A DNA stretch of 44,664 bases from a phage. The position numbers were made by a program, and so were the translations under genes. Shown here in pieces: positions 11,769 to 23,841 of this stretch; positions within the stretch are counted from its first letter, which is position 1; every line of letters starts with the position of its first letter. The notes under the pieces are model-generated. The model was given only the letters and a program-made list of their open reading frames with translations, was not told where the DNA came from and did not search any database. The stretch lies in the sequence record OZ077758.1. One strand, 5' to 3'.

Positions 11769-14411
11769 ATGGCAGATCAAGCGGCAGGCATCACGCTGAA
11801 GGCTGATGTTGCACAAATAAGAACGGCAAATACTGTGCTGGACTCCTTCGCACAGAAATCCGAGAACACAGAAAACAAGGTTAAGAAATTAAACGACACC
11901 CTCGGCAAATCCAAAAAGGTGACGAGTGACGCCGCGGGCGGAATGGAGAAGCTGGCGACTGAATCGCAGCGCGCCGCCGATGGCATGACGAAACAGGAGC
12001 GACTCGCCAACCGGTTGGGCATGTCGACCAAAAACCTGGGCTTTGCCTCGCGTAATGCCGCATTCCAGTTACAGGATATCGCGGTTACGCTTGAGATGGG
12101 GATGCCGGTGCACCGCGTCATGCTTCAGCAGCTCCCACAGCTTACTGGGGCGTTCGGCGGACTGGGTAACACGCTGCGTTATGTTGCGGGATTTCTTGGT
12201 CCGGTAGGGATCGGCCTCGCCGCCGTAACGGCAACGTTAGGCGTGGGCGTGGCAATTACGTCCCGCGCAGAGAACCAGGTCGCCGCGCTTAACAAGACGC
12301 TGGCACTTTCCGGTAACATTTCCGGCCTGACGGCAAACCAGATCCTGGTGCTATCCGAGAACGCCGAGCGCATGGGCGGGTCATTTCGCAAGACGCGTGA
12401 CACAATCCAGGCGCTGGCGGCGGCGGGTGTGAAAGCGGGTGGTGACTTCGGCGCACTGGCGAAGGTAGTGAATGACTTCGCGAAGGTGTCCAGCCAGCCG
12501 ATCGAGGATGTGGTCGCGGCGGTGGCGAAGCTATCTACCGACCCGGTAGGTGGCTTGCGAGCATTGGCGGATAAGTATCACGTCGTAAACGAAGCGCAGA
12601 TCCAGCAGGTGCAGTCACTAGTGACGGCTGGTCGCGAAACCGAAGCGGTGGCGCTGGCTAACAAAACAGCCGCAGCGTCGTTTACCACCATGACCAATGA
12701 GATCAAGTCCAACATGGGTACGCTTGAGCGGTCGATGAACGTCGTTACATCGGCAGCTAAATCTATGTGGGATGCTATCCTGGATGTTGGACGCGCGCAG
12801 TCCTCGAATGAGTCCGAGATGAAAGCGCGTGAGTCATTGCAGCGGCTGACAACGGCTTACTATGCCGAGATGAAAGCGGTAAACGCTGCCGGTGGGGTGA
12901 TGACCGAAGCGCAGAAAGCGCGTATTAACATGCTTTACAGCGAACTGGTCGCCCAGGAAAAAGTAGTGGCGTCGCTAACCCTGCGTAACCGTGCCGAGCG
13001 AGACAACGCAAGTGCCGCTGACGAAGCAGCAAAGGCGAACGAAGAGGCAAACCGCACCGCCCGCGACCGCGCCGCGTTTGAGAAGGAGTACGCAACCAAC
13101 GCGAAGCGGCGAGCCGACGAGATCGCCCGCCTCAATTTGCTGAATAAGCGCGGCGTGATTGACGAGAAAGAGCTTGCCGAGGCGGTGAAGCAAGTAAACG
13201 AGCGTTACAAAGACCCCGCCCCGAAGAAGGCCGCCGCTGTTCGAGTCGATGCCGGGCTGAAAATGCTGGAAGTCGCACGGAGCGAACTGGCCCAGCTTCG
13301 AGAATCCGGCAAGCAGATCGAAGCCAACGCGTCTACGCAGACCCGCACGCAACGCGCTCAAGCGGCCTTAAACAAGCTGATCGCCGACAATGAGCAGTTA
13401 ATCGCTGCGAGCAAAGAAAGAGCGCTAACGGCAGCAGAAAAGCAGCAATTAGTCGAGTTCGGGCGCGTGAAGGAAGTCCGCGAGCAGATCGTCGAAGAAG
13501 CCAAATTGCTGGATGCGAAAGAGCAGCAGGTTAAGGCGCACGCGCAGATCGATGCCTTCGTTAAGAACCAGAACGCCGAACTAAAAGCCACCGCCGCGGG
13601 GTATGCGCTTTCCACTCGCGAAGCGGCAAACCTGCGCGAAGAATTGCAGCTAATTGACCGCCTGAAGCGGGTTGGCGCTAACGATACCGATATTGACAAG
13701 GCGGTGTCTAAGCTGCGAGAAGTGCAGGAAGCACAGACCGGCGCTAACGCCTCGTTATGGGATGGATTCAGTCGCGGGCTTAAGGATAGCGTGGATGAAA
13801 TGGGTAACGGCTATACGCAGATGACGTCGCTCACAAAATTCACGTTCAGCGCTATGCAGGACACGATGAACGAGTTTTTCGAGACTGGCAAGCTAAACGC
13901 AAAGGATATGGTTAAATCCATCCTGAGCGAACTAATCAAGCTGGCTACCTCGCAGGCATTCAAGTCCATCGTTAGCGCTTTCGGCGGCGACGGCGGCAAA
14001 AACGGATTGTTCGGCGCTATCTTCTCGGGCCTCACTAAGAATGCGGACGGCGGAGCGTACGCAGGAGGCAATCTCGCGGCCTATTCCGGGCAGGTGGTAA
14101 GCCAGCCAACCTTTTTCAGTTATGGCGTCCAGGCGTTCGCTAAGGGCGCAGGATTGATGGGTGAGGCCGGACCCGAGGCCATCATGCCACTGAAGCGCGG
14201 GCCGGATGGCAAACTGGGCGTTGCCGCGTCTGGCGCAGGCGGTGGTATGGTCGTGACGACTAACGTTTACACGGGGACCGGTAAGACGGACACCAGTGTT
14301 AGCGGGCCAGACCCACGTACCGCGCAGGCGTTCGGCAAGCAAATCACCGAGGCGGTGAAGTCCGAGATCGTGAAAGCGACTAAACCAGGTGGTGTACTTT
14401 ACAAACGATGA
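11769..14411 (+). CDS. tail tape measure protein
   Basis: 880 aa, long alpha-helical Ala/Gln/Glu-rich middle region, Gly-rich C-terminus; follows G/GT. Confidence 0.85.
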   Translation: MADQAAGITLKADVAQIRTANTVLDSFAQKSENTENKVKKLNDTLGKSKKVTSDAAGGMEKLATESQRAADGMTKQERLANRLGMSTKNLGFASRNAAFQLQDIAVTLEMGMPVHRVMLQQLPQLTGAFGGLGNTLRYVAGFLGPVGIGLAAVTATLGVGVAITSRAENQVAALNKTLALSGNISGLTANQILVLSENAERMGGSFRKTRDTIQALAAAGVKAGGDFGALAKVVNDFAKVSSQPIEDVVAAVAKLSTDPVGGLRALADKYHVVNEAQIQQVQSLVTAGRETEAVALANKTAAASFTTMTNEIKSNMGTLERSMNVVTSAAKSMWDAILDVGRAQSSNESEMKARESLQRLTTAYYAEMKAVNAAGGVMTEAQKARINMLYSELVAQEKVVASLTLRNRAERDNASAADEAAKANEEANRTARDRAAFEKEYATNAKRRADEIARLNLLNKRGVIDEKELAEAVKQVNERYKDPAPKKAAAVRVDAGLKMLEVARSELAQLRESGKQIEANASTQTRTQRAQAALNKLIADNEQLIAASKERALTAAEKQQLVEFGRVKEVREQIVEEAKLLDAKEQQVKAHAQIDAFVKNQNAELKATAAGYALSTREAANLREELQLIDRLKRVGANDTDIDKAVSKLREVQEAQTGANASLWDGFSRGLKDSVDEMGNGYTQMTSLTKFTFSAMQDTMNEFFETGKLNAKDMVKSILSELIKLATSQAFKSIVSAFGGDGGKNGLFGAIFSGLTKNADGGAYAGGNLAAYSGQVVSQPTFFSYGVQAFAKGAGLMGEAGPEAIMPLKRGPDGKLGVAASGAGGGMVVTTNVYTGTGKTDTSVSGPDPRTAQAFGKQITEAVKSEIVKATKPGGVLYKR

Positions 14412-14445
14412 TAAAATGGCCCTCACTACAACGTGGGGGCTTTTT

Positions 14446-15045
14446 ATGTCACAAGGTACAATCACACTAACGAAAGGAAGTAAGACCGTCACGGGCGCGG
14501 GAACGGCGTTCCTTAGCGAGATCGGGAAGGTACTCGTATTCGCCCGCATCGACGGCAACGACTACACCGGCAAAATTGCGGCATTCAACTCGAACACGGT
14601 CATTACTCTGAAAGATAACTGGGCTGGGCCAACGAAATCCGGTGCGGCATATGAGCTAATCGAAGCACACGACCCGCGATCAAACGAATGGCCCTATTAC
14701 TGGCACATGCAATTGCAGGGCGGTGGCGACGTGCAGTTAGCTTTCCGGTCCGAGGAATTGCAATTCGGTAATGGCTACGGGCAGAACATCGCGGACGGCC
14801 CGAACGCCGAAACTAAACAGTTCCCCGTGCAATTCATAGGGCTGACTACTGACAAGTGGTGCAACCCTAAACTGGTTTACAACTTCCTTCGCGGGCACTT
14901 CGTCAAGCCGTTTGTCGTCACCGCGCCGGATGGCGAAACAGGTTTATTCGTGGTCGAGCGTTCGAGCTTGTCGTACACGGACAACGGACACCTCACGGCA
15001 ACCGTATCCGCCACCCTTAAGACTGCTATTGGATTCGTAAGATGA
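14446..15045 (+). CDS. minor tail protein (gpM-like C-terminal domain with extra N-terminal domain)
   Basis: 199 aa from ATG 14446; N-terminal ~70 aa align with the N-terminus of the tail fibre 21928..23841; position after tape measure. Confidence 0.55.
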   Translation: MSQGTITLTKGSKTVTGAGTAFLSEIGKVLVFARIDGNDYTGKIAAFNSNTVITLKDNWAGPTKSGAAYELIEAHDPRSNEWPYYWHMQLQGGGDVQLAFRSEELQFGNGYGQNIADGPNAETKQFPVQFIGLTTDKWCNPKLVYNFLRGHFVKPFVVTAPDGETGLFVVERSSLSYTDNGHLTATVSATLKTAIGFVR

Positions 15046-15830
15046 ATAAACTTTATCGCGAGGCGACGCGCTTTGACCCATCGGGTCGCGTTCGCCTGAT
15101 TCACATTGACGCGCAGGACGTGGAACCAGGCGACGGTGCGATCGGCGCGGGCCATCACTATTTCCACTACTGCTTTATTCCGCACACTGCCGAGGATATT
15201 GCCGCCGCAGGCGGTGACGAGGACAAGCTAAAACCTAAATCCATCTTCTTCGGCGGGCAGGAGTTCGAATTTTGGCCCTTCGATTTGTCCGGCCTCAACT
15301 TCTCCACATCAACGGCCGCAGAACCGCAACTAACAATCGTCGATATTGGCGGCATAATAACCCGGCTGTCGCTGAATCACGACCAGCTACTGGGCGCGAA
15401 GGTTGAGATCATTGATACGTTCGCGAAGTTCCTGGACAACGGGACAGATCCAGACCCGACGCAGAAACGAGTTCAGGAGTATTACATTGACTCGCAGGTC
15501 GGGCGCAATCCTGGCAAGCAAATCACCTTCGCACTATCCTCTCCTGCGGATATGGAGGGGCAAGTAGTTCCCCGCCGCCAAATCATGAATATGTGCGAAT
15601 GGGCGTTAAATGGGAAGTACGCCAGCGGGGACGGGTGCACTTGGAACCTTGCGAAGCCAGGTATCAAGTATTACGACGAGCGGGGTAATGAAGTCATCGC
15701 GATGAATATGGACCGATGCGGCGGCTGTTTGTCCGACTGCTATCTTCGTTTTGGTCAAGGTCTTGCGGACCCAAAAGCGGCTGTGCTGGACTTCGGCGGT
15801 TTTCCTGGGTCCAGATTAATTAAGGGGTAG
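15042..15830 (+). CDS. minor tail protein L (gpL-like)
   Basis: 262 aa; C-terminal Cys cluster CxW..C..C...C and terminal FGGFPG as in lambda gpL. Confidence 0.8.
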   Translation: MNKLYREATRFDPSGRVRLIHIDAQDVEPGDGAIGAGHHYFHYCFIPHTAEDIAAAGGDEDKLKPKSIFFGGQEFEFWPFDLSGLNFSTSTAAEPQLTIVDIGGIITRLSLNHDQLLGAKVEIIDTFAKFLDNGTDPDPTQKRVQEYYIDSQVGRNPGKQITFALSSPADMEGQVVPRRQIMNMCEWALNGKYASGDGCTWNLAKPGIKYYDERGNEVIAMNMDRCGGCLSDCYLRFGQGLADPKAAVLDFGGFPGSRLIKG

Positions 15831-16573: not shown

Positions 16574-17181
16574 CAACGTTTAAATTGTACGGCGTCTTAG
16601 GGCGTCGATTCGGTAAAGTTCATAAGCTGGACTGCTTCACTCCGGGCGAGGGTATTACCGGCCTGTGCGTGAAGTTACCCGGCTTACAGGACTTTCTAAT
16701 GTCAGCCCACCTGGACAATATGATGTTCAAGGTGCGCAAAGGCGACCACACGATGACCGGCTATGATGAGCTGGGTGAGTTCCACGGCAACCGCGTCGTC
16801 ACCATCGCGCCGGTTATGACTGGCGCAAAAAGAGGGTTGGGACAATTGCTGGCGGGTGTCGCGATCGTAGTGGCGTCGTTCTATACGGGCGGACTTGCTA
16901 CTGCCGCTTTCGGGGCTTCGGCTGCAACCGCTGCCGCTATCGGGACGGCGACGTTTTCGTTCGGGATGTCGATGGCGCTGGGTGGCGTTATGCAATTGCT
17001 GTCGCCACAACCGAAGGGATTGCAGACAAGGCAGGACGTGGATAACAAGGCGTCGTATGCGTTCGGCGGCCCAGTAAACACTACCGCGCAAGGCACGGCT
17101 CTTGGTGTATTATGGGGCGAGCGTGAGATCGGCGGCGCTATTATTTCAGCCGGAATCGTAACCGAGGACTTGAACGAATGA
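16564..17181 (+). CDS. tail assembly protein I (gpI-like)
   Basis: 205 aa; N-terminal ubiquitin-like region and Gly/Ala-rich hydrophobic C-terminal segment; position between K and J. Confidence 0.7.
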   Translation: MAMTTFKLYGVLGRRFGKVHKLDCFTPGEGITGLCVKLPGLQDFLMSAHLDNMMFKVRKGDHTMTGYDELGEFHGNRVVTIAPVMTGAKRGLGQLLAGVAIVVASFYTGGLATAAFGASAATAAAIGTATFSFGMSMALGGVMQLLSPQPKGLQTRQDVDNKASYAFGGPVNTTAQGTALGVLWGEREIGGAIISAGIVTEDLNE

Positions 17182-20100
17182 CGATTATCTACGACGTCAC
17201 AGGGCATAAAGGCGGCGGCGGCAAACAGCACACCCCACAGGAGACGCCAGATAGCCTGCATTCGCTGGCTAAAATCCGCATCTTGCTTGCGCTGGGGGAA
17301 GGGGAATTCGAAAGTATTACCAGCGCCAGCGAATTGCGGCAGCGTGTTTACCTGGATGGAACGCCGATCCAGAACGCTGACTTGTCCGAAAACTTCCCTG
17401 GCGCGCGTGTGGAGTTCCGCCCCGGCACACAGCACCAGGATGTGATCCACGGATTTTCAGCGGTGGAAAGTGAGCAATCTGTCGGCGTAAAACTGGAAAA
17501 CGGTACGCCGTGGGTACGCCAGATTAACGATACCAGTCTGGACGCCGTTCGCATTCGCATCGGAATTCCGGCCCTGTACACTAACGAAGATAATGGCGAC
17601 CTGGTTGGCGGACGCATTGACTATAAGATCGTTGTGTATACGGATAACGCCGACCCGCGTGAGTTCAGATTCGCCGCCGTTGGTAAAACAATGTCGCTGT
17701 ATGAGCGCGACCACCGCATCGAATTACCGCCGAACGTGAATACCGGCTGGCGCGTGGAGGTGCACCGCATAACGGCAGACTCCACATCGGCGAAAGTGGT
17801 TAATGATATCCGGGTGCAGTCCATCACTGAGATTATTGACGCCCGCCTGCGTTACCCGCTAACCGCGCTGTTGTTTGTGGAGTTCGACGCCAAAGCGTTC
17901 CAGAACATCCCGCGCGTGTCCATCAAGTGCAAAGGTCGCAAAGTTCTAATACCGAACAACTACGACCCGATCAATCATACCTATTCCGGGGACTGGGACG
18001 GCACGTTTAAACGCGCATGGACGGATAACCCTGCGTGGCACTGGTACGATATTTGTATTACTGAGCGCTTCGGCCTCGGTCGGCGTATCAAACCGCAAAT
18101 GCTAAACCGATACGCGCTCTACCAGATTGCGCAGCGCTGCGATCAGTTGGTCAGCGACGGCAACGGTGGTCGAGAAATCCGCTTTAAGAATGATATGTAC
18201 ATTCAGTCACAGACGGATGCCTGGACCGTGCTTAAGGATTTAGCCGCCATCTTCGCCGGAATGACCTGGTGGGGCAACCAGATGTTGAATATCGTCAGTG
18301 ACCAACCGGTCGCAGCAGTGTCGCACACTATCACCAACGCCTCGGTTATTGATGGGCGCTTCGACTACGCGTCCGGTAGCCAGAAAACTCGGTACTCCAC
18401 GTTCGCAGTAGCATACGGCAACCCGAAGAACCACTATGAAGATGCTATCGCAACGGGGCAACGTGTCGAACTGGTACGCCGCCATAAGATTAACCGTCTT
18501 GATATTACGGCGATCGGCTGTACGCGTGAATCTGAAGCGCAACGTCGCGGGCACTGGGCGCTAATTTCCAACCAGCTTGACCAGCAAGTTAGCTTTAAAG
18601 TTGGCATGGAAGGGTTATTCTTTATTCCCGGTAGCGTAGTCGCGATCGCGGATACAAACATTTCTGGCGGTTTTGAGACGCGCGGCGGTCGACTGTTGTC
18701 GGACCCAGGAACTCGTACCGTGCTGAACACGGACAGCGAAATCACATTCCGCCCTGGCGATAAGTTCCTGGTACGCACCGATAGCGGTAATGTGGAGACT
18801 CGCGAGATCGCCAGCGTCAACGGCAACAAGGTAACGCTAAAAACCGCACTGGACGCCAACCCTATTCCTGACCAGCCGTTTTGCATTGATGGCGACGATA
18901 TCCAGTTGCAGAAATTCCGCATCACCGACCTGGAGTATGACGACTCTACGAGCACTTTCTCGGTGCGCGGGATTGAGTACAACGATAGCAAGTATGATGC
19001 CGTCGATAATGGCGCGCGCCTTGATCCGGGTATCTTTACGCAAGTGCCTGACGGGGTAATGAAGGGGCCGGAATCCGTGACCATCACCCCGTCGCAGATT
19101 TCATCGCAAGGGCAGCTAATCACCAACGTGGATATTGTATTCCCTCCGGTGAAGGATGCCGTGGTGTATGAAATCCAGTGGAGGCGTACCAGCCTTCAGA
19201 ATATGGAAATCCAGTGGGGTAACGACTGGGTGAATATCCCACGCACGGCGTCGAATGGGGCGCACATCCCTAACGTGTTCTCCGGTAACTACCAGGCACG
19301 CGTCCGCGCGATCGGTATGGGCGAGATTTCATCTCCGTGGGTGTCGTCCGCCATCACGCCGGTGGAAGGTCGTCTCGGTGGGCTTAACGCACCAATCATC
19401 ACCAACGCTATTTCGGGCCTTCACCAGATCTTGTGGAAGTGGAACCACAACAACGCCGCTACTGATATCTCGTACACCGAGCTTGAAGTGCGCAAGACCG
19501 GTGAGACTGAATGGAAATTCCTTACCAACGTCCCATATCCGGGGGCGGAGTATGCGCAAACATCGCTGGAGTTCGGAATTTACCAGCAGTTGCGCGCCCG
19601 TGTAGCGGATAAAATCGGCAACCTGTCGGACTGGTCGGCCCCGTTTGAAGGGCAGGTGAGTGACAAAGTTGACGAGTACATGAAGGGGCTTGATGACGAG
19701 TTCTTGACTTCCGAGGATGGTAAACGCTTCCAGGAAGCAATCAACACGATCCCGCAGGGTATTTACGAGGCGATGCTCACCGACGCGCAGCAATTGTTCA
19801 ACGCCCGCGCCGAGTACAAGGGTATTTATGCGGAAATCTCGGTCGCGTATAACGTGGCGGCGGACGCCCACAAGGCGGTCGCTCAACTGGAGACGTTGAT
19901 CGGCACGCGACTTGATGACGCGGAAGCTGCGATCCACACGTTGCAGACCGCGCAGAGCACACAGGAACAAGCGTTCGCCCAGTATCAGCAAACTGTTGCC
20001 GCTAAGTTCGGGGAACAAGAAGCCGCCATCCAGCAGGTACAAACGGCAACGGCGGACGTGGCGGGCGCACTTGCGGAGTACAAAACCCAGGTGGCGGCAC

Positions 20101-20597
20101 AGTTCGGTCAGCAGTCCGCAGCTATCGAGCAGAAGATGACGTCAACGTTTAACCATGCGGGTGGTAGCGCCACCTACAGCCTTAAGGCGGGCGTGACGTA
20201 TAACGGGACTTACTATGATGCCGGTATGCAGCTTTCCGTTGTGACGTCGGGCAACGCGGTTAAATCGCGTATTGCGTTCAAGGCGGACCAGTTCTACATC
20301 ATGCACCCATCCAATGGGACGCTTTCGTCCGCGTTTATTGTGGACGGCGGACAGGTGTATATCGACACGGCACGCATCAAGAACGCGTCCATCAACTTCG
20401 CGCAGATAACAGACACGCTGCAATCGAATAACTACGACGGCAGCACGCGCGGCTGGCGCTTAGGGAAAGATGGAACGTTTATCAACCTGGGCACCGGTAG
20501 CGGCGGCGGGATGAAACAGACGAACACAAGAATCAGCGTGAAGGACGGAAACGGCGTTCTCCGCGTGCAGATTGGTGAGCTTACTGGTAGCTGGTAG
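17178..20597 (+). CDS. central tail fibre / host specificity protein (gpJ-like)
   Basis: 1139 aa, overlaps gpI stop; size and position of lambda J. Confidence 0.85.
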   Translation: MTIIYDVTGHKGGGGKQHTPQETPDSLHSLAKIRILLALGEGEFESITSASELRQRVYLDGTPIQNADLSENFPGARVEFRPGTQHQDVIHGFSAVESEQSVGVKLENGTPWVRQINDTSLDAVRIRIGIPALYTNEDNGDLVGGRIDYKIVVYTDNADPREFRFAAVGKTMSLYERDHRIELPPNVNTGWRVEVHRITADSTSAKVVNDIRVQSITEIIDARLRYPLTALLFVEFDAKAFQNIPRVSIKCKGRKVLIPNNYDPINHTYSGDWDGTFKRAWTDNPAWHWYDICITERFGLGRRIKPQMLNRYALYQIAQRCDQLVSDGNGGREIRFKNDMYIQSQTDAWTVLKDLAAIFAGMTWWGNQMLNIVSDQPVAAVSHTITNASVIDGRFDYASGSQKTRYSTFAVAYGNPKNHYEDAIATGQRVELVRRHKINRLDITAIGCTRESEAQRRGHWALISNQLDQQVSFKVGMEGLFFIPGSVVAIADTNISGGFETRGGRLLSDPGTRTVLNTDSEITFRPGDKFLVRTDSGNVETREIASVNGNKVTLKTALDANPIPDQPFCIDGDDIQLQKFRITDLEYDDSTSTFSVRGIEYNDSKYDAVDNGARLDPGIFTQVPDGVMKGPESVTITPSQISSQGQLITNVDIVFPPVKDAVVYEIQWRRTSLQNMEIQWGNDWVNIPRTASNGAHIPNVFSGNYQARVRAIGMGEISSPWVSSAITPVEGRLGGLNAPIITNAISGLHQILWKWNHNNAATDISYTELEVRKTGETEWKFLTNVPYPGAEYAQTSLEFGIYQQLRARVADKIGNLSDWSAPFEGQVSDKVDEYMKGLDDEFLTSEDGKRFQEAINTIPQGIYEAMLTDAQQLFNARAEYKGIYAEISVAYNVAADAHKAVAQLETLIGTRLDDAEAAIHTLQTAQSTQEQAFAQYQQTVAAKFGEQEAAIQQVQTATADVAGALAEYKTQVAAQFGQQSAAIEQKMTSTFNHAGGSATYSLKAGVTYNGTYYDAGMQLSVVTSGNAVKSRIAFKADQFYIMHPSNGTLSSAFIVDGGQVYIDTARIKNASINFAQITDTLQSNNYDGSTRGWRLGKDGTFINLGTGSGGGMKQTNTRISVKDGNGVLRVQIGELTGSW

Positions 20598-20633: not shown

Positions 20634-20936
20634 ATGGCATTCGGTATCGCAACGTGGGACGCGCAAGGACGCCCAAACAACTACGGCATTAAACCGGTAA
20701 GCGTGGTCGGAAGGATTCATCTTGCGGAAGGACAAAAATCAGGCGCATGGTCATTCCCTGTACCGGCGGGGATGAAGGTCGGATACGTGGTCGCACTGGA
20801 TAAAGGCGCGGTCGGGCCAGGCCGCAGAATAACCGCCAGCGGGAACACTATCACGGTATCCGCGGCAAGTGCGGTAGGTGGCGGGGTTTACTCCGCATCT
20901 GAATGTGACGTTATTGTTTTTGTGGAGCGAGCATAA
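20634..20936 (+). CDS. hypothetical protein (tail-tip region)
   Basis: 100-aa ORF directly after gpJ terminator; coupled (ATAATG) to next ORF. Confidence 0.5.
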   Translation: MAFGIATWDAQGRPNNYGIKPVSVVGRIHLAEGQKSGAWSFPVPAGMKVGYVVALDKGAVGPGRRITASGNTITVSAASAVGGGVYSASECDVIVFVERA

Positions 20937-21610
20937 TGGCTAATTACGGCGCGTTGATTGACTTACCAAACGGCAACCCGTTTATCACACCAGAATCGAC
21001 GCCGTTTTGTCTATTCCGCCGTGTGGTTGTTGGGTCTTCGGCTAACGGCACTGCGCAGTCGGCGGCTGCCGATATTAATTTGGGTGGTGACTACCCTGCA
21101 ATAGCGTTTGTGAAAACTACGCACACCGCCCAGCCGACCGTCGTAGGGTCTTCTCGCGTTGGTAATGTGGTGAAGGTGAGCGCCAGCAATCCATTCGGGC
21201 AAGGCTTCACGATGACGGCTTACATCTTTGCCATATTCCCACAGACCCTTCCGCGGTGGGGCTTCGCTATTTGGGATAAGACGGGGAAGCTAGTGCTTAC
21301 TAATGAGAGTCGCGTACTAAGTGATTTAGTTACCGTCGGATCGCCAGGCGCTAACGGGGGGATTAACATTGACCAGACGCTAAACGGCAGCTACGCCGTC
21401 GCTCCGGGCATATTGGGGTCTACGCTGATCCGGTTTTTTGTGCAGGGCCAGCCGCAAGTAATATCGGTGACGGCGTACACGGGGGCCAGATTTGATGGGT
21501 CGCGAACGCGTATATCAGCAGCGTCGTCGGGGAACGCCACAGGGGATGTGGTAGGGTATACTAACAACGGCAACGCGATTATGGCGATTAACACCGCCAA
21601 TTATGATTGA
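20936..21610 (+). CDS. hypothetical protein, possible receptor-binding or tail-associated protein
   Basis: 224 aa, Gly/Ser/Thr-rich; position between gpJ and the exclusion-like lipoprotein. Confidence 0.5.
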   Translation: MANYGALIDLPNGNPFITPESTPFCLFRRVVVGSSANGTAQSAAADINLGGDYPAIAFVKTTHTAQPTVVGSSRVGNVVKVSASNPFGQGFTMTAYIFAIFPQTLPRWGFAIWDKTGKLVLTNESRVLSDLVTVGSPGANGGINIDQTLNGSYAVAPGILGSTLIRFFVQGQPQVISVTAYTGARFDGSRTRISAASSGNATGDVVGYTNNGNAIMAINTANYD

Positions 21611-21612
21611 AG

Positions 21613-21636
21613 AAAGCCCCGAAAGGGGCTTATTTG
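21613..21636. terminator. hairpin terminator between convergent genes
   Basis: AGCCCCGAAAGGGGCT hairpin with flanking T-rich sequence on both strands. Confidence 0.5.
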
Positions 21637-21848
21637 CAGGTGGTGCTTTTGAAGTGGTCGACCGACACATACTGGAAGTTGAACGGATACCCCGCCTTGA
21701 GCATTTTGTGCCCGCTAAAGTCGGCGACACCGAACACCGGTACAGAATACTCCATACCGCTATTCATATATGTCGCGTCGCAGATTTTAGACGGCATACC
21801 GGCACAACCGGACAGAAGAACCGCACAAATCATAATTAAAGTTTTCAT
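21630..21848 (-). CDS. small lipoprotein, candidate superinfection-exclusion (Llp/Cor-like role)
   Basis: 72 aa from ATG 21848..21846 with strong RBS AGGAGA; signal peptide MKTLIMICAVLLSGC with lipobox LSGC; opposite strand to flanking tail genes. Confidence 0.65.
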   Translation of the reverse strand: MKTLIMICAVLLSGCAGMPSKICDATYMNSGMEYSVPVFGVADFSGHKMLKAGYPFNFQYVSVDHFKSTTCK

Positions 21849-21927
21849 GTTATCATCTCCTATATTTGGTTGAGTTTTAGTATTACACCTCTCAACCAGG
21901 ATTGCAACCAATTATGAGGATTCAGCT

Positions 21928-23841
21928 ATGGCAGCGGGTACACTATCCGTAACGAATAACAGCAAGGCGGTTGTCGGGGTCGGCACAACGTTTACGGCGT
22001 TTAAAGCGGGCGACTTCTTAACGCTGGTGGTGGGTCAAGTCCCCTACACCGTAGCGATCGCGTCCGTTGAAAGTGCAACCGCGCTAACGCTGGTGCTGCC
22101 GTTCGACGGCCCTACGGCAACCGGCCTAGCGTGGGATGGCGTTAAGCGCGACACCATGTCGCTGGCGACGATGGGCGTAACCGTCCAGGCACAGAAAGCG
22201 TTGCGCTTGATGATCGCAGATGAAAACAACTGGCGTGCAATCTTCGGCGACGCTGAAGAAATCACAGTGACGTTACCTAACGGGCAAGTTATGCAGGGCA
22301 TGTCGTGGGGCTATTTGTCCTCCTTGCTGAAGGAAGTAGACCCCGTTGAGATGCGCAACCTTCAACAACAGGCCGAGACGGCGAAAAACCAAGCTGTTAC
22401 CGCTAAGGGGCAGGCAGAATCGGCGCGCGACGCAGCTAATACGGCGAAGACTGGGGCGGAGACGGCACGCGACGCCGCTAATACTGCGAAGACCGACGCG
22501 CAGACCGCAAAAGGCCAGGCCGAATCCGCACGCGACGCCGCTAATACTGCGAAGACCGGAGCAGAGAACGCTCGCAACCAGGCGCAAGGCTACCGTGATG
22601 AGGCGGAAGGTTTTAAAAACCAGATTAACCCTGCACTATTCGTGCAGAAGTCCCAAAACCTGAATGACGTTGCCGATAAAGCTGAGGCGCGCGCTAACTT
22701 GCAAGTTTTATTTGCGTCAAACTCTAACCTGGGGGCTACCGACCTCAACACGCTCAACAGCACGAAGGAAGGGCGTTATTACCAGACCACATCGGTGAAC
22801 GCTACACCAGAGCGTAACTACCCGTTTCAGGAAGCCGGTTGTCTTACCGTGTTTAAAACCGGCGGGGGTAGTGTGGAGGCTTGCATCCAGGAGTACACCA
22901 CGTTTTCAAGCCTGCGTCGGTTCGTCCGTTCGCTCGCTGGGGCGGTGTGGACGGAGTGGAAGGAGATCTACCTGCAAGGGTCGTCCCCAACATACGAAAA
23001 TATCGACTCGACAGGACGAGTTAGATCTGAAAAGGCATATCCAGCGTTCGAGTGGGTGTCGACGAGAGTAGCCGACGATTTCATCGGTAAGCGAGTCAGC
23101 ATTGAGAACGACACAGGCGTTAATATGTATATGTTCTTCATGCAGAAAGACACAACCGCAAACAGACGTGTCGTAGCGTTCGCAAGGCCAAACTCTACTG
23201 TTTTCCACTTCGTAGGGTATAACGGCGGGCTACCTACCGACGGCAACAGTGCGCCGTCAAATACCATCAACTTTAACACGCAACCGCAAGGCTGGCGTCT
23301 GGTGTCCGGCGGCTGGCAAAATGCACCGCTAGCCGGTAACAATTACGGGACACTATTCACGCAATGTATGCAGGGTGTCGCGCAAGGGGATTCGAAAGAC
23401 AACGGTACATCTGGCTTGTGGTATTCACAGCGATATTTTAATACCGAGTCTAGGGTGTTCATCCGAAATCAAACAAACAACGCCGCCTGGACTGGCTGGT
23501 ACGAGCTTACTAAAACAGCAGTATCGGATGAACGCCTGAAGAATGTAAAAGGTAATTTGAATGTTGAAGGTGCGCTCGATAACATCAACCGCATGGAATT
23601 TAAAATATTCTCGTTTAAGGATGAGAAGGCCGGTAAGGGGTATCGTCGCGGTGTTATCTCGCAGCAGATTCGCCAGATCGATAAAGAGTACACGAAGGAG
23701 ATCGGCGGGTACTATCACCTCGACCAGACACCAATGCTACTGGACGCCCTAGCGGCAATTAAGGCGTTGCGTGCGCGTGACGAGGCTAATAAAGCAGAGA
23801 TTGCAGAACTGAAGGCGGCTATTGCCGAATTGAAGAAATAA
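21928..23841 (+). CDS. tail fibre with C-terminal intramolecular chaperone (peptidase S74) domain
   Basis: 637 aa; tandem 20-residue repeats (ARDAANTAKTGAE...) encoded by nucleotide repeats around 22380..22600; C-terminal SDERLKNV motif and coiled-coil tail characteristic of the self-cleaving chaperone domain. Confidence 0.8.
   Translation: MAAGTLSVTNNSKAVVGVGTTFTAFKAGDFLTLVVGQVPYTVAIASVESATALTLVLPFDGPTATGLAWDGVKRDTMSLATMGVTVQAQKALRLMIADENNWRAIFGDAEEITVTLPNGQVMQGMSWGYLSSLLKEVDPVEMRNLQQQAETAKNQAVTAKGQAESARDAANTAKTGAETARDAANTAKTDAQTAKGQAESARDAANTAKTGAENARNQAQGYRDEAEGFKNQINPALFVQKSQNLNDVADKAEARANLQVLFASNSNLGATDLNTLNSTKEGRYYQTTSVNATPERNYPFQEAGCLTVFKTGGGSVEACIQEYTTFSSLRRFVRSLAGAVWTEWKEIYLQGSSPTYENIDSTGRVRSEKAYPAFEWVSTRVADDFIGKRVSIENDTGVNMYMFFMQKDTTANRRVVAFARPNSTVFHFVGYNGGLPTDGNSAPSNTINFNTQPQGWRLVSGGWQNAPLAGNNYGTLFTQCMQGVAQGDSKDNGTSGLWYSQRYFNTESRVFIRNQTNNAAWTGWYELTKTAVSDERLKNVKGNLNVEGALDNINRMEFKIFSFKDEKAGKGYRRGVISQQIRQIDKEYTKEIGGYYHLDQTPMLLDALAAIKALRARDEANKAEIAELKAAIAELKK

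What the first reader, a model, noticed from the sequence alone, without database searches (positions are those of the whole stretch)
14446..14700. Shared N-terminal domain between the gpM-like minor tail protein and the tail fibre
The first ~70 residues of 14446..15045 (MSQGTITLTKGSKTVTGAGTAF...YTGKIAAFNSNTVITLKDNWAGPT) align with the tail fibre N-terminus (MAAGTLSVTNNSKAVVGVGTTF...YTVAIASVESATALTLVLPFDGPT), while the rest of the first protein resembles lambda gpM. A fibre-type anchoring domain fused to a gpM-like body is unusual and suggests domain shuffling at the tail tip, or two proteins competing for one docking site.
Basis: seen in the sequence. Interest (0 to 1): 0.45.

Follow-up and report, generated by a model that had tools for sequence, protein, structure and literature searches.

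The report
Fibre-anchor barrel fused to distal tail protein
The tail-ring protein of this E. coli phage (genus Dhillonvirus) carries at its front end a small barrel-shaped domain that is a true relative of the domain that starts the phage's side tail fibre; this is a real but already catalogued case of phage tail parts being swapped between proteins.

Summary
Residues 1-72 of the 199-aa gpM-like distal tail protein (DTP, 14446..15045) are homologous to residues 1-72 of the side tail fibre (21928..23841). BLASTP gives 35% identity, E 3e-7. Smith-Waterman z is 13-16 against shuffles. An HMM built from fibre sequences only scores the DTP at E 1e-26. hhalign gives 99.1% probability. A predicted fibre barrel superposes on a predicted 199-aa DTP at 1.3 A.

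The window is a Dhillonvirus (HK578-like). The fused DTP is PHROG 9922, is present in about 158 GenBank phages, and is 95.5% identical to a solved chain (PDB 23gd_B, "Distal tail protein gp20").

The domain is the N-terminal anchor barrel of side fibres. In F-type pyocins it clamps the coiled-coil shaft of the J-like central fibre. It also occurs in tandem arrays in other proteins.

The fusion to gpM is lineage-specific. N15, Klebsiella KLB16 and Dhillonvirus-like metagenome contigs have the same fibre barrel but a short DTP. The DTP copy is therefore not required for fibre attachment.

[quoted passage not shown] Interest is modest.

The parts
14446..14661 (+). DTP residues 1-72: beta-barrel of the side-fibre N-terminal anchor family
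   Evidence: Also matches the F2-pyocin side fibre N-terminus 25ve_A, E 1e-4.
14662..14700 (+). DTP residues 73-85: linker (IEAHDPRSNEWPY) between the barrel and the gpM fold
   Evidence: Alignment with short DTPs begins at WPYYW. PF05939 starts at residue 86.
14701..15045 (+). DTP residues 86-199 plus stop codon: gpM-type tail-tube-fold body (distal tail protein)
   Evidence: PF05939 at 44.2 bits. 95.5% identical overall to PDB 23gd_B 'Distal tail protein gp20'. T1 DTP 9l9p_H, E 6e-12.
21928..22143 (+). Side tail fibre residues 1-72: the paralogous anchor barrel
   Evidence: AF2 model with seven strands, pLDDT 82-91.
22147..22332 (+). Fibre residues 74-135: stem helix and conserved proximal region that follows the barrel; absent from the DTP
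   Evidence: Helix 74-99 in the model. phrog_28473 covers residues 1-135. 87-100% identical among six Dhillonviruses.
21928..23841 (+). Whole side (lateral) tail fibre, 637 aa, with a C-terminal S74 intramolecular chaperone domain (residues 533-587)
   Evidence: phrog_1980, E 2e-120. PF13884.
17178..20597 (+). J-like central fibre / tip protein with a helical shaft (about residues 830-990); by analogy with F-pyocins, the candidate docking partner of the fibre barrel
   Evidence: Pfam FNIII-A_GpJ, Phage-tail_3 and Phage_Tail_Tip. 23gd_D, and F2-pyocin central fibre 25vf_A at E 4e-225.
19671..19724 (+). J residues 832-849 (DEYMKGLDDEFLTSEDGK): conserved acidic segment at the start of the shaft; candidate fibre-docking site (inference only)
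   Evidence: Conserved in N15, KLB16, L003, L005 and Ioannina although shaft length varies. The F7-pyocin docking site is an acidic kink in the shaft (PMC12874032).
14418..14441 (+). Terminator-like hairpin plus T-run directly before the DTP start codon; it sequesters the GGGGG Shine-Dalgarno-like run
   Evidence: -20.4 kcal/mol, z -4.3. Conserved, with compensatory changes, in relatives with a short DTP.
11769..14411 (+). Tape measure protein (880 aa), upstream neighbour
   Evidence: Relatives: PF06791 and PF09718.
15042..15830 (+). gpL-like hub protein, downstream neighbour
   Evidence: PF05100, E 3e-36. 23gd_C 'Hub protein gp21'.

Best explanation
The gene at 14446..15045 encodes the distal tail protein (DTP, the lambda gpM equivalent) of a Dhillonvirus. 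In this lineage only, the DTP gained an N-terminal copy of the ~72-residue beta-barrel that normally begins side tail fibres.

Shown here:
- The two barrels are homologous and have the same fold.
- The C-terminal 114 residues are a gpM-type tail-tube-fold domain.
- The fusion is confined to one protein cluster.
- Relatives with the same fibre barrel have a DTP without it.

Inferred:
- The DTP forms the hexameric ring between the tail tube and the hub.
- In lambda, the gpM N-terminus (K2, W6) lies on the outer surface at the gpV/gpM junction. That is where the Stf collar binds.
- Six barrels per virion are therefore displayed on the outside of the tube-tip junction. They would act as a covalently built-in collar or decoration, comparable to the extra barrel of T5 pb9 or the phage Chi DTP.
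- The side fibres most likely dock as in F-type pyocins. Their own barrels plus the stem helix would clamp the acidic start of the coiled-coil shaft of the J-like central fibre.
- The DTP copy is thus an accessory peripheral module (stabilising, or weakly adhesive), not the fibre's obligatory receptor.
For: Homology and fold.

Identity of the phage and protein:
- 99.9% DNA identity to phages welsh and EC115; 158 records match.
- phrog_9922 at full length.
- PDB 23gd_B/C/D = DTP gp20, hub gp21, J-like gp24.

Lineage specificity:
- Only one of the 150 best representative clusters has a gpM body.
- The closest other DTPs (54-64% identical over the gpM body) are 122-125 aa.
- Their contigs have the same tail module and a fibre with the barrel.
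- N15 gp17 is 115 aa and KLB16's DTP is 130 aa; both have a fibre with the barrel.

Peripheral, weakly constrained domain:
- The DTP barrel is 61-99% identical among six Dhillonviruses, against 89-100% for the gpM body.
- 8 of the 9 differences from 23gd_B lie in the barrel.

Outer position: lambda Stf collar domains contact gpM K2 and W6 (PMC12617516). Pfam maps DTP W86 to about profile position 5.

Fibre docking on the J shaft:
- Three F-pyocin structures show the homologous domain (residues 2-76) plus stem binding the kinked acidic coiled coil (PMC13455828, PMC12874032, bioRxiv 2026.02.24.707460).
- The window's J is homologous to the pyocin central fibre, shaft included, and has a conserved acidic motif.

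Against: - I could not inspect the 23gd coordinates and found no paper for that entry. The position and contacts of the barrel in the virion are therefore inferred, not seen.
- No function has been shown for the DTP barrel.
- The fusion is retained in all ~158 Dhillonvirus records, with the family's conserved residues intact. This argues that it does something specific.
- Fibre docking on the J shaft is extrapolated from Pseudomonas tailocins. The pyocin acidic kink could not be aligned by sequence to the window's motif.
- The fibre barrel is not in any PDB chain, so its site in Dhillonviruses is unknown.
Confidence: 0.6

Rival explanations
1. The six DTP barrels are the docking platform for the side fibres. 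Fibre barrels would pack laterally against their DTP paralogues to complete a mixed collar (for example 6 + 6). The DTP would thus be a covalently pre-installed half of the dodecameric fibre collar seen in Ur-lambda (Stf N-domains) and T5 (p132).
For: - In F-pyocins the barrels of neighbouring fibre trimers pack side by side into a pseudo-sixfold ring, so barrel-barrel contacts exist in this family.
- Lambda and T5 collars sit exactly at the DTP level and have 12 members.
- Both barrels are present in every Dhillonvirus record.
- The DTP copy keeps the family's conserved positions.
Against: - Relatives with the same fibre barrel (63% identical in KLB16; also L003-L005 and N15) have no DTP barrel.
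- The two barrels do not co-vary. Window versus bov16_1: DTP barrel 69%, fibre barrel 96%. 101114BS4 versus WFI: 99% versus 77%.
- The only solved homologue of the fibre barrel binds the J shaft, not the DTP.
- No fibre chain is deposited with the solved Dhillonvirus tip 23gd.
Confidence: 0.25
2. One reading: the DTP barrel and the fibre barrel compete for one docking site, for example the J shaft. The DTP copy would regulate or block fibre attachment.
For: - The domains are homologous.
- Only two of the three barrels of each pyocin fibre trimer are bound, so sites are limiting there.
Against: - The DTP copy is tethered by a ~13-residue linker to a ring that lies above the hub, far from the distal J shaft.
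- It lacks the stem helix that contributes to shaft binding in pyocins.
- Nothing in the sequence data indicates competition.
Confidence: 0.05
3. The DTP barrel is chiefly a carbohydrate- or surface-binding adhesin that speeds reversible adsorption, as proposed for Ig-like and OB-like decorations of other siphophage tails. This is a sub-case of the best explanation with a specific activity.
For: - Faster evolution than the gpM body.
- The same barrel occurs in tandem arrays in large surface-type proteins with PKD domains.
- It resembles the N-terminal domains of tailspikes and depolymerases and T5 pb9.
Against: - No known glycan-binding motif and no Pfam carbohydrate-binding family hit.
- In solved cases the domain mediates protein-protein anchoring, not glycan binding.
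Confidence: 0.1

Closest known systems
PDB 23gd chain B, 'Distal tail protein gp20' (Dhillonvirus tail tip; the entry also holds hub gp21 and J-like gp24)
   Same: Same protein: 199 aa, full-length alignment, 190 of 199 residues identical. Same neighbours.
   Different: Nine substitutions, eight of them in the barrel. I could not view the coordinates or find a publication, so what the depositors say about the N-domain is unknown to me.
N-terminal attachment domain of F-type pyocin side fibres (PyoF13 / PA0643 / PA0646; PDB 25ve)
   Same: Sequence-homologous barrel of about 72 residues (DTP versus 25ve_A, E 1e-4). The window's fibre has the same barrel-then-stem-helix layout. Tail tip and J shaft are homologous.
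   Different: In pyocins the domain sits only on the fibre and the DTP (PyoF6 / PA0637) is a plain tube-fold protein. Here a second copy is fused to the DTP and lacks the stem helix.
Lambda gpM / T1 gp37 / N15 gp17 (PF05939 minor tail protein M, the plain DTP)
   Same: Residues 86-199 match PF05939 above threshold. The gene lies between the tape measure and gpL.
   Different: Those proteins are 109-117 aa with no N-terminal domain.
T5 pb9 and phage Chi DTP (distal tail proteins with extra peripheral domains)
   Different: No detectable sequence relationship. In pb9 the extra domain follows the tube fold, whereas here it precedes it. There it is not a paralogue of the phage's own fibre anchor.
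Ur-lambda Stf N-terminal collar domain and the T5 p132 collar
   Same: Small beta domains, followed by a helix, that encircle the DTP level of the tail and anchor side fibres.

Membership tests
Distal tail protein of the lambda gpM type (Pfam PF05939 Phage_min_tail) | Profile match above the curated threshold | tested here: met
   44.2 bits against a cut-off of 39; residues 86-192 on profile positions 5-105 of 108.
Distal tail protein of the lambda gpM type (Pfam PF05939 Phage_min_tail) | Gene lies directly between the tape measure gene and the gpL-type hub gene | tested here: met
   TMP 11769..14411, DTP 14446..15045, gpL-like 15042..15830 with PF05100.
Distal tail protein of the lambda gpM type (Pfam PF05939 Phage_min_tail) | Forms the hexameric ring between the last tube ring and the trimeric hub | not testable with these tools
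   Implied by the depositors' name for the 95.5%-identical chain 23gd_B (two chains per entry, consistent with a C3 asymmetric unit). Coordinates could not be inspected.
Side-fibre N-terminal anchor barrel (F-pyocin PyoF13/PA0646 N-domain; PHROGs 1980, 28473, 17834) | Sequence-profile membership | tested here: met
   PHROG fibre families at E 2e-18 to 5e-15 for DTP 1-85. Fibre-only HMM at E 1e-26. hhalign 99.1%. 16 of 17 conserved positions kept.
Side-fibre N-terminal anchor barrel (F-pyocin PyoF13/PA0646 N-domain; PHROGs 1980, 28473, 17834) | Small all-beta barrel fold | tested here: met
Side-fibre N-terminal anchor barrel (F-pyocin PyoF13/PA0646 N-domain; PHROGs 1980, 28473, 17834) | Barrel followed by a trimerising stem helix that leads into a fibre shaft | tested here: not met
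   Met by the window's fibre (helix 74-99). Not met by the DTP: a 13-residue linker leads straight into the gpM fold.
Side-fibre N-terminal anchor barrel (F-pyocin PyoF13/PA0646 N-domain; PHROGs 1980, 28473, 17834) | Binds the coiled-coil shaft of the J-like central fibre | not testable with these tools
   Known only from the pyocin structures. The window's J has a homologous shaft and a conserved acidic motif, but binding was not tested.
DTPs with an accessory decoration domain (T5 pb9 type) | Tube-fold domain plus an extra OB-like barrel on the ring periphery | tested here: inconclusive
Lambda Stf / T5 p132 collar domains | Ig-like six-stranded domain forming a 12-membered collar around the DTP | tested here: not met

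The most novel reading that the evidence does not exclude
[quoted passage not shown] This would give Dhillonviruses a second fibre attachment mode at the DTP level, one that their barrel-less relatives and the F-pyocins lack.
Probability: 0.18. Interest if true: 0.55.

Novelty: new member of a known kind. Interest (0 to 1): 0.3.

Why it matters
- It is a clean, datable example of module capture at a phage tail tip. A fibre-anchor barrel was inserted in frame at the exposed N-terminus of the tail's adaptor ring.
- Natural 'before' states still exist in close relatives, so the event can be compared directly.
- It yields a simple test of how lateral fibres are held on small siphophages that are widely isolated and used on E. 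coli: delete the barrel, or add it to a short DTP.
- It shows that the pyocin side-fibre anchor belongs to a large, promiscuous domain family (715 representative clusters).
- It does not reveal a new kind of system. The protein family is catalogued and a near-identical structure is deposited.

Tried and rejected
- Word-indexed homologue search with the 82-aa domain alone found nothing. The full DTP and fibre 1-140 gave only 10 and 5 hits. The exhaustive representative search was needed.
- AlphaFold2 of fibre 1-140 with a 6-sequence alignment failed (pLDDT 39). It was repeated with 38 diverse sequences.
- Five literature searches, and a term search of the SECphi27 RAZR paper, found no publication for 23gd. 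The Sf11 paper turned out to describe an unrelated DTP.
- Chance similarity is rejected.
- A mis-called start or two merged genes is rejected. The PDB chain is the same 199 aa, the upstream GTG at 14389 overlaps the tape measure gene's end, and relatives share the ATG context.
- Recent duplication of the resident fibre barrel is rejected. The DTP barrel is only 35% identical to its own fibre, but 41-52% identical to barrels of other phages.
- Compensation by the 153-aa insertion in gpL of L003/L004 is not general. L005 has both a short DTP and a normal gpL.
- Mapping the pyocin acidic kink onto the window's J by sequence failed; the alignment starts downstream of it.
- Tandem Repeats Finder found no DNA repeat in the fibre gene.

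Full report
**What the window is.** The 901 bases around the finding are 99.9% identical to Escherichia phages welsh and EC115. They match 158 phage records, nearly all Dhillonvirus (HK578-like) coliphages. The region has a lambda-like tail module:
- tape measure, 11769..14411;
- a 199-aa gpM-like protein, 14446..15045;
- gpL-like hub, 15042..15830;
- gpK-like and gpI-like proteins;
- a 1139-aa J-like protein, 17178..20597;
- two small receptor-module ORFs and a reverse-strand cor gene;
- a 637-aa side fibre, 21928..23841.

- BLASTP aligns residues 1-73 of the gpM-like protein with residues 1-73 of the fibre at 35% identity, E 3e-7.
- The local alignment score of 99 is 13-16 standard deviations above 5000 shuffles.
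- PHROG profiles of several tail-fibre families match DTP residues 1-72 at E 1e-12 to 1e-18. Conversely, the DTP's own family (phrog_9922) matches the fibre N-terminus.
- An HMM that I built only from fibre N-termini scores the DTP at 89.7 bits (E 1e-26), as well as the phage's own fibre (91.3 bits). It finds exactly two copies in the window.
- hhalign of the DTP family against the fibre family gives 99.1% probability.
- The DTP keeps 16 of the 17 strongly conserved family positions.
- Residues 86-192 match Pfam PF05939 (lambda gpM family) above threshold.

The refutation criteria stated in the finding (non-significant alignment, unrelated folds) are therefore not met.

**What the domain is.** By sequence, the DTP barrel hits the N-terminus of the F2-pyocin side fibre (25ve_A, E 1e-4). 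Three independent F-pyocin structures show what that domain does. Residues 2-76 of the side fibre, an OB-like barrel, together with the following stem helix, bind a kinked acidic stretch of the coiled-coil shaft of the J-like central fibre. [quoted passage not shown]

The window's tail tip is homologous to the pyocin's: hub E 1e-29, J E 4e-225, shaft included.

An exhaustive search of 1.84 billion representatives finds 715 clusters with the barrel. Among the best 150:
- 73 carry it once at the N-terminus (fibres);
- 46 carry it twice;
- 26 carry 3-13 tandem copies (some with PKD or cytochrome c7 domains, some ahead of an SU10-adaptor-like domain);
- 13 carry it internally.

It is a promiscuous module.

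**The fusion is lineage-specific and clean.**
- Only one of those 150 clusters, the Dhillonvirus DTP, also has a gpM body.
- The nearest other DTPs (54-64% identical over the gpM body) are 122-125 aa and begin a few residues before the WPYYW motif.
- Their contigs (L003, L004, L005) have the same tail gene order, an 880-aa tape measure, and a fibre that carries the barrel.
- N15 (DTP gp17, 115 aa) and Klebsiella phage KLB16 (DTP 130 aa; fibre barrel 63% identical) show the same pattern.
- The intergenic hairpin, T-run and ATG are conserved between the long and short versions. About 80 codons (barrel plus linker) were therefore added in frame just after the start codon.
- The DTP barrel is only 35% identical to the resident fibre barrel, but 41-52% identical to barrels elsewhere. 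It is not a recent copy of the neighbouring gene.

**Already catalogued.** The fused protein is PHROG 9922. It is present in about 158 GenBank phages. It is 190/199 identical to PDB 23gd_B, 'Distal tail protein gp20', deposited together with hub gp21 and J-like gp24. I found no paper for that entry and cannot view coordinates. No PDB chain matches the fibre itself.

**How it most likely works.**

Shown: the protein is a gpM-type DTP with a fibre-family barrel at its N-terminus.

Inferred:
- In Ur-lambda the side-fibre collar contacts gpM K2 and W6 at the gpV/gpM junction (PMC12617516). The gpM N-terminus is therefore on the outer surface.
- Pfam maps DTP W86 to about that position. Six barrels should thus sit on the outside of the tube-tip junction on 13-residue linkers.
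- Relatives attach fibres with the same barrel without any DTP barrel, and the solved homologue binds the J shaft. The fibres here most likely dock on the J shaft.
- An acidic motif at the start of that shaft (DEYMKGLDDEFLTSEDGK, residues 832-849) is conserved from N15 to the Dhillonviruses, although shaft length varies.

The DTP barrel is then an accessory collar or decoration, like the extra barrels of T5 pb9 and the Chi DTP.

Consistent with a peripheral, weakly constrained position:
- It is 61-99% identical among six Dhillonviruses, against 89-100% for the gpM body.
- 8 of the 9 differences from 23gd_B lie in it.
- It does not co-vary with the fibre barrel: 69% versus 96% in one pair, 99% versus 77% in another.

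**Rivals.**
- A mixed collar, in which fibre barrels pack against DTP barrels, is not excluded. Barrel-barrel packing exists in pyocins, collars sit at this level in lambda and T5, and the fusion is universally retained in the genus. The relatives, the lack of covariation and the pyocin precedent weigh against it.
- Competition for one site has no support. The DTP copy is tethered far from the shaft and lacks the stem helix.
- A glycan-binding adhesin role is possible but has no positive evidence.

**Verdict.** The specific point that the extra barrel is a paralogue of the side-fibre anchor is a useful, testable detail rather than a new system.

Noticed in passing
window 14418..14445: A 9-bp GC-rich hairpin (-20.4 kcal/mol, z -4.3) followed by a T-run lies between the tape measure stop codon and the DTP ATG. 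It sequesters the only Shine-Dalgarno-like run (GGGGG). It is conserved with compensatory stem changes in relatives L003, L005 and bov16_1, and is annotated as a putative terminator in WFI and WF5505. It may attenuate transcription or gate translation of the tail-tip genes.
   Followed up: partly
window 20634..21911: The receptor module downstream of J comprises a 100-aa protein (phrog_557, N15 gp22-like), a 224-aa protein (phrog_425, N15 gp23-like) and a reverse-strand Cor superinfection-exclusion gene (21630..21911, phrog_1119). Other Dhillonviruses (Ioannina, WFI, bov16_1) carry instead a reverse-strand 321-aa DUF6453 protein plus a lipoprotein, so this is a swapped receptor cassette.
   Followed up: partly
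L003 10362..11609 and L004 6133..7380: In two metagenomic Dhillonvirus-like contigs with a short DTP, the gpL-type hub protein is 415 aa instead of 262 aa. It has a ~153-residue insertion after about residue 58 that matches no Pfam or PHROG family. This is another lineage-specific domain gain at the tube-tip junction.
   Followed up: partly
proteins P0016-P0020, P0029 and others (representative search): The fibre-anchor barrel occurs in 3-13 tandem copies in proteins of 1000-2700 aa. Some of these also have PKD domains (P0016) or multihaem cytochrome c7 motifs (P0018). It also occurs in two copies ahead of an SU10-adaptor-like domain (P0022, P0026). It is therefore not restricted to fibre N-termini.
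   Followed up: partly
window 19671..19724 (J residues 832-849): The acidic segment DEYMKGLDDEFLTSEDGK at the start of the J shaft, followed by a helix-breaking IPQG, is conserved from N15 and KLB16 to the Dhillonviruses, while the shaft downstream varies by up to ~80 residues. It is a candidate side-fibre docking site by analogy with the F7-pyocin acidic kink.
   Followed up: partly
window 22330..22600 (fibre residues ~135-225): The fibre shaft contains imperfect peptide repeats (AKGQAESARDAANTAKTGAE[T/N]AR...), visible in the translation. They produce long antisense ORFs, but Tandem Repeats Finder reports no DNA repeat. The fibre ends in an S74 intramolecular chaperone domain (residues 533-587).
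   Followed up: no
GenBank records MG065648.1, OQ221563.1, NC_013600.1: Records named Campylobacter phage A144, Acinetobacter phage NJ01 and Sodalis phage SO-1 carry this DTP at 98-100% amino-acid identity to E. coli Dhillonviruses. This suggests mis-assigned hosts or contaminating coliphages.
   Followed up: no
L008 (phage WF5505) 9501..10100: The WF5505 DTP reads GAGRRSWSEIGK where all relatives read GAGTAFLSEIGK. A short stretch differs at every residue inside an otherwise 95-100% identical protein, which looks like a compensated frameshift or a sequencing error in the barrel.
   Followed up: no
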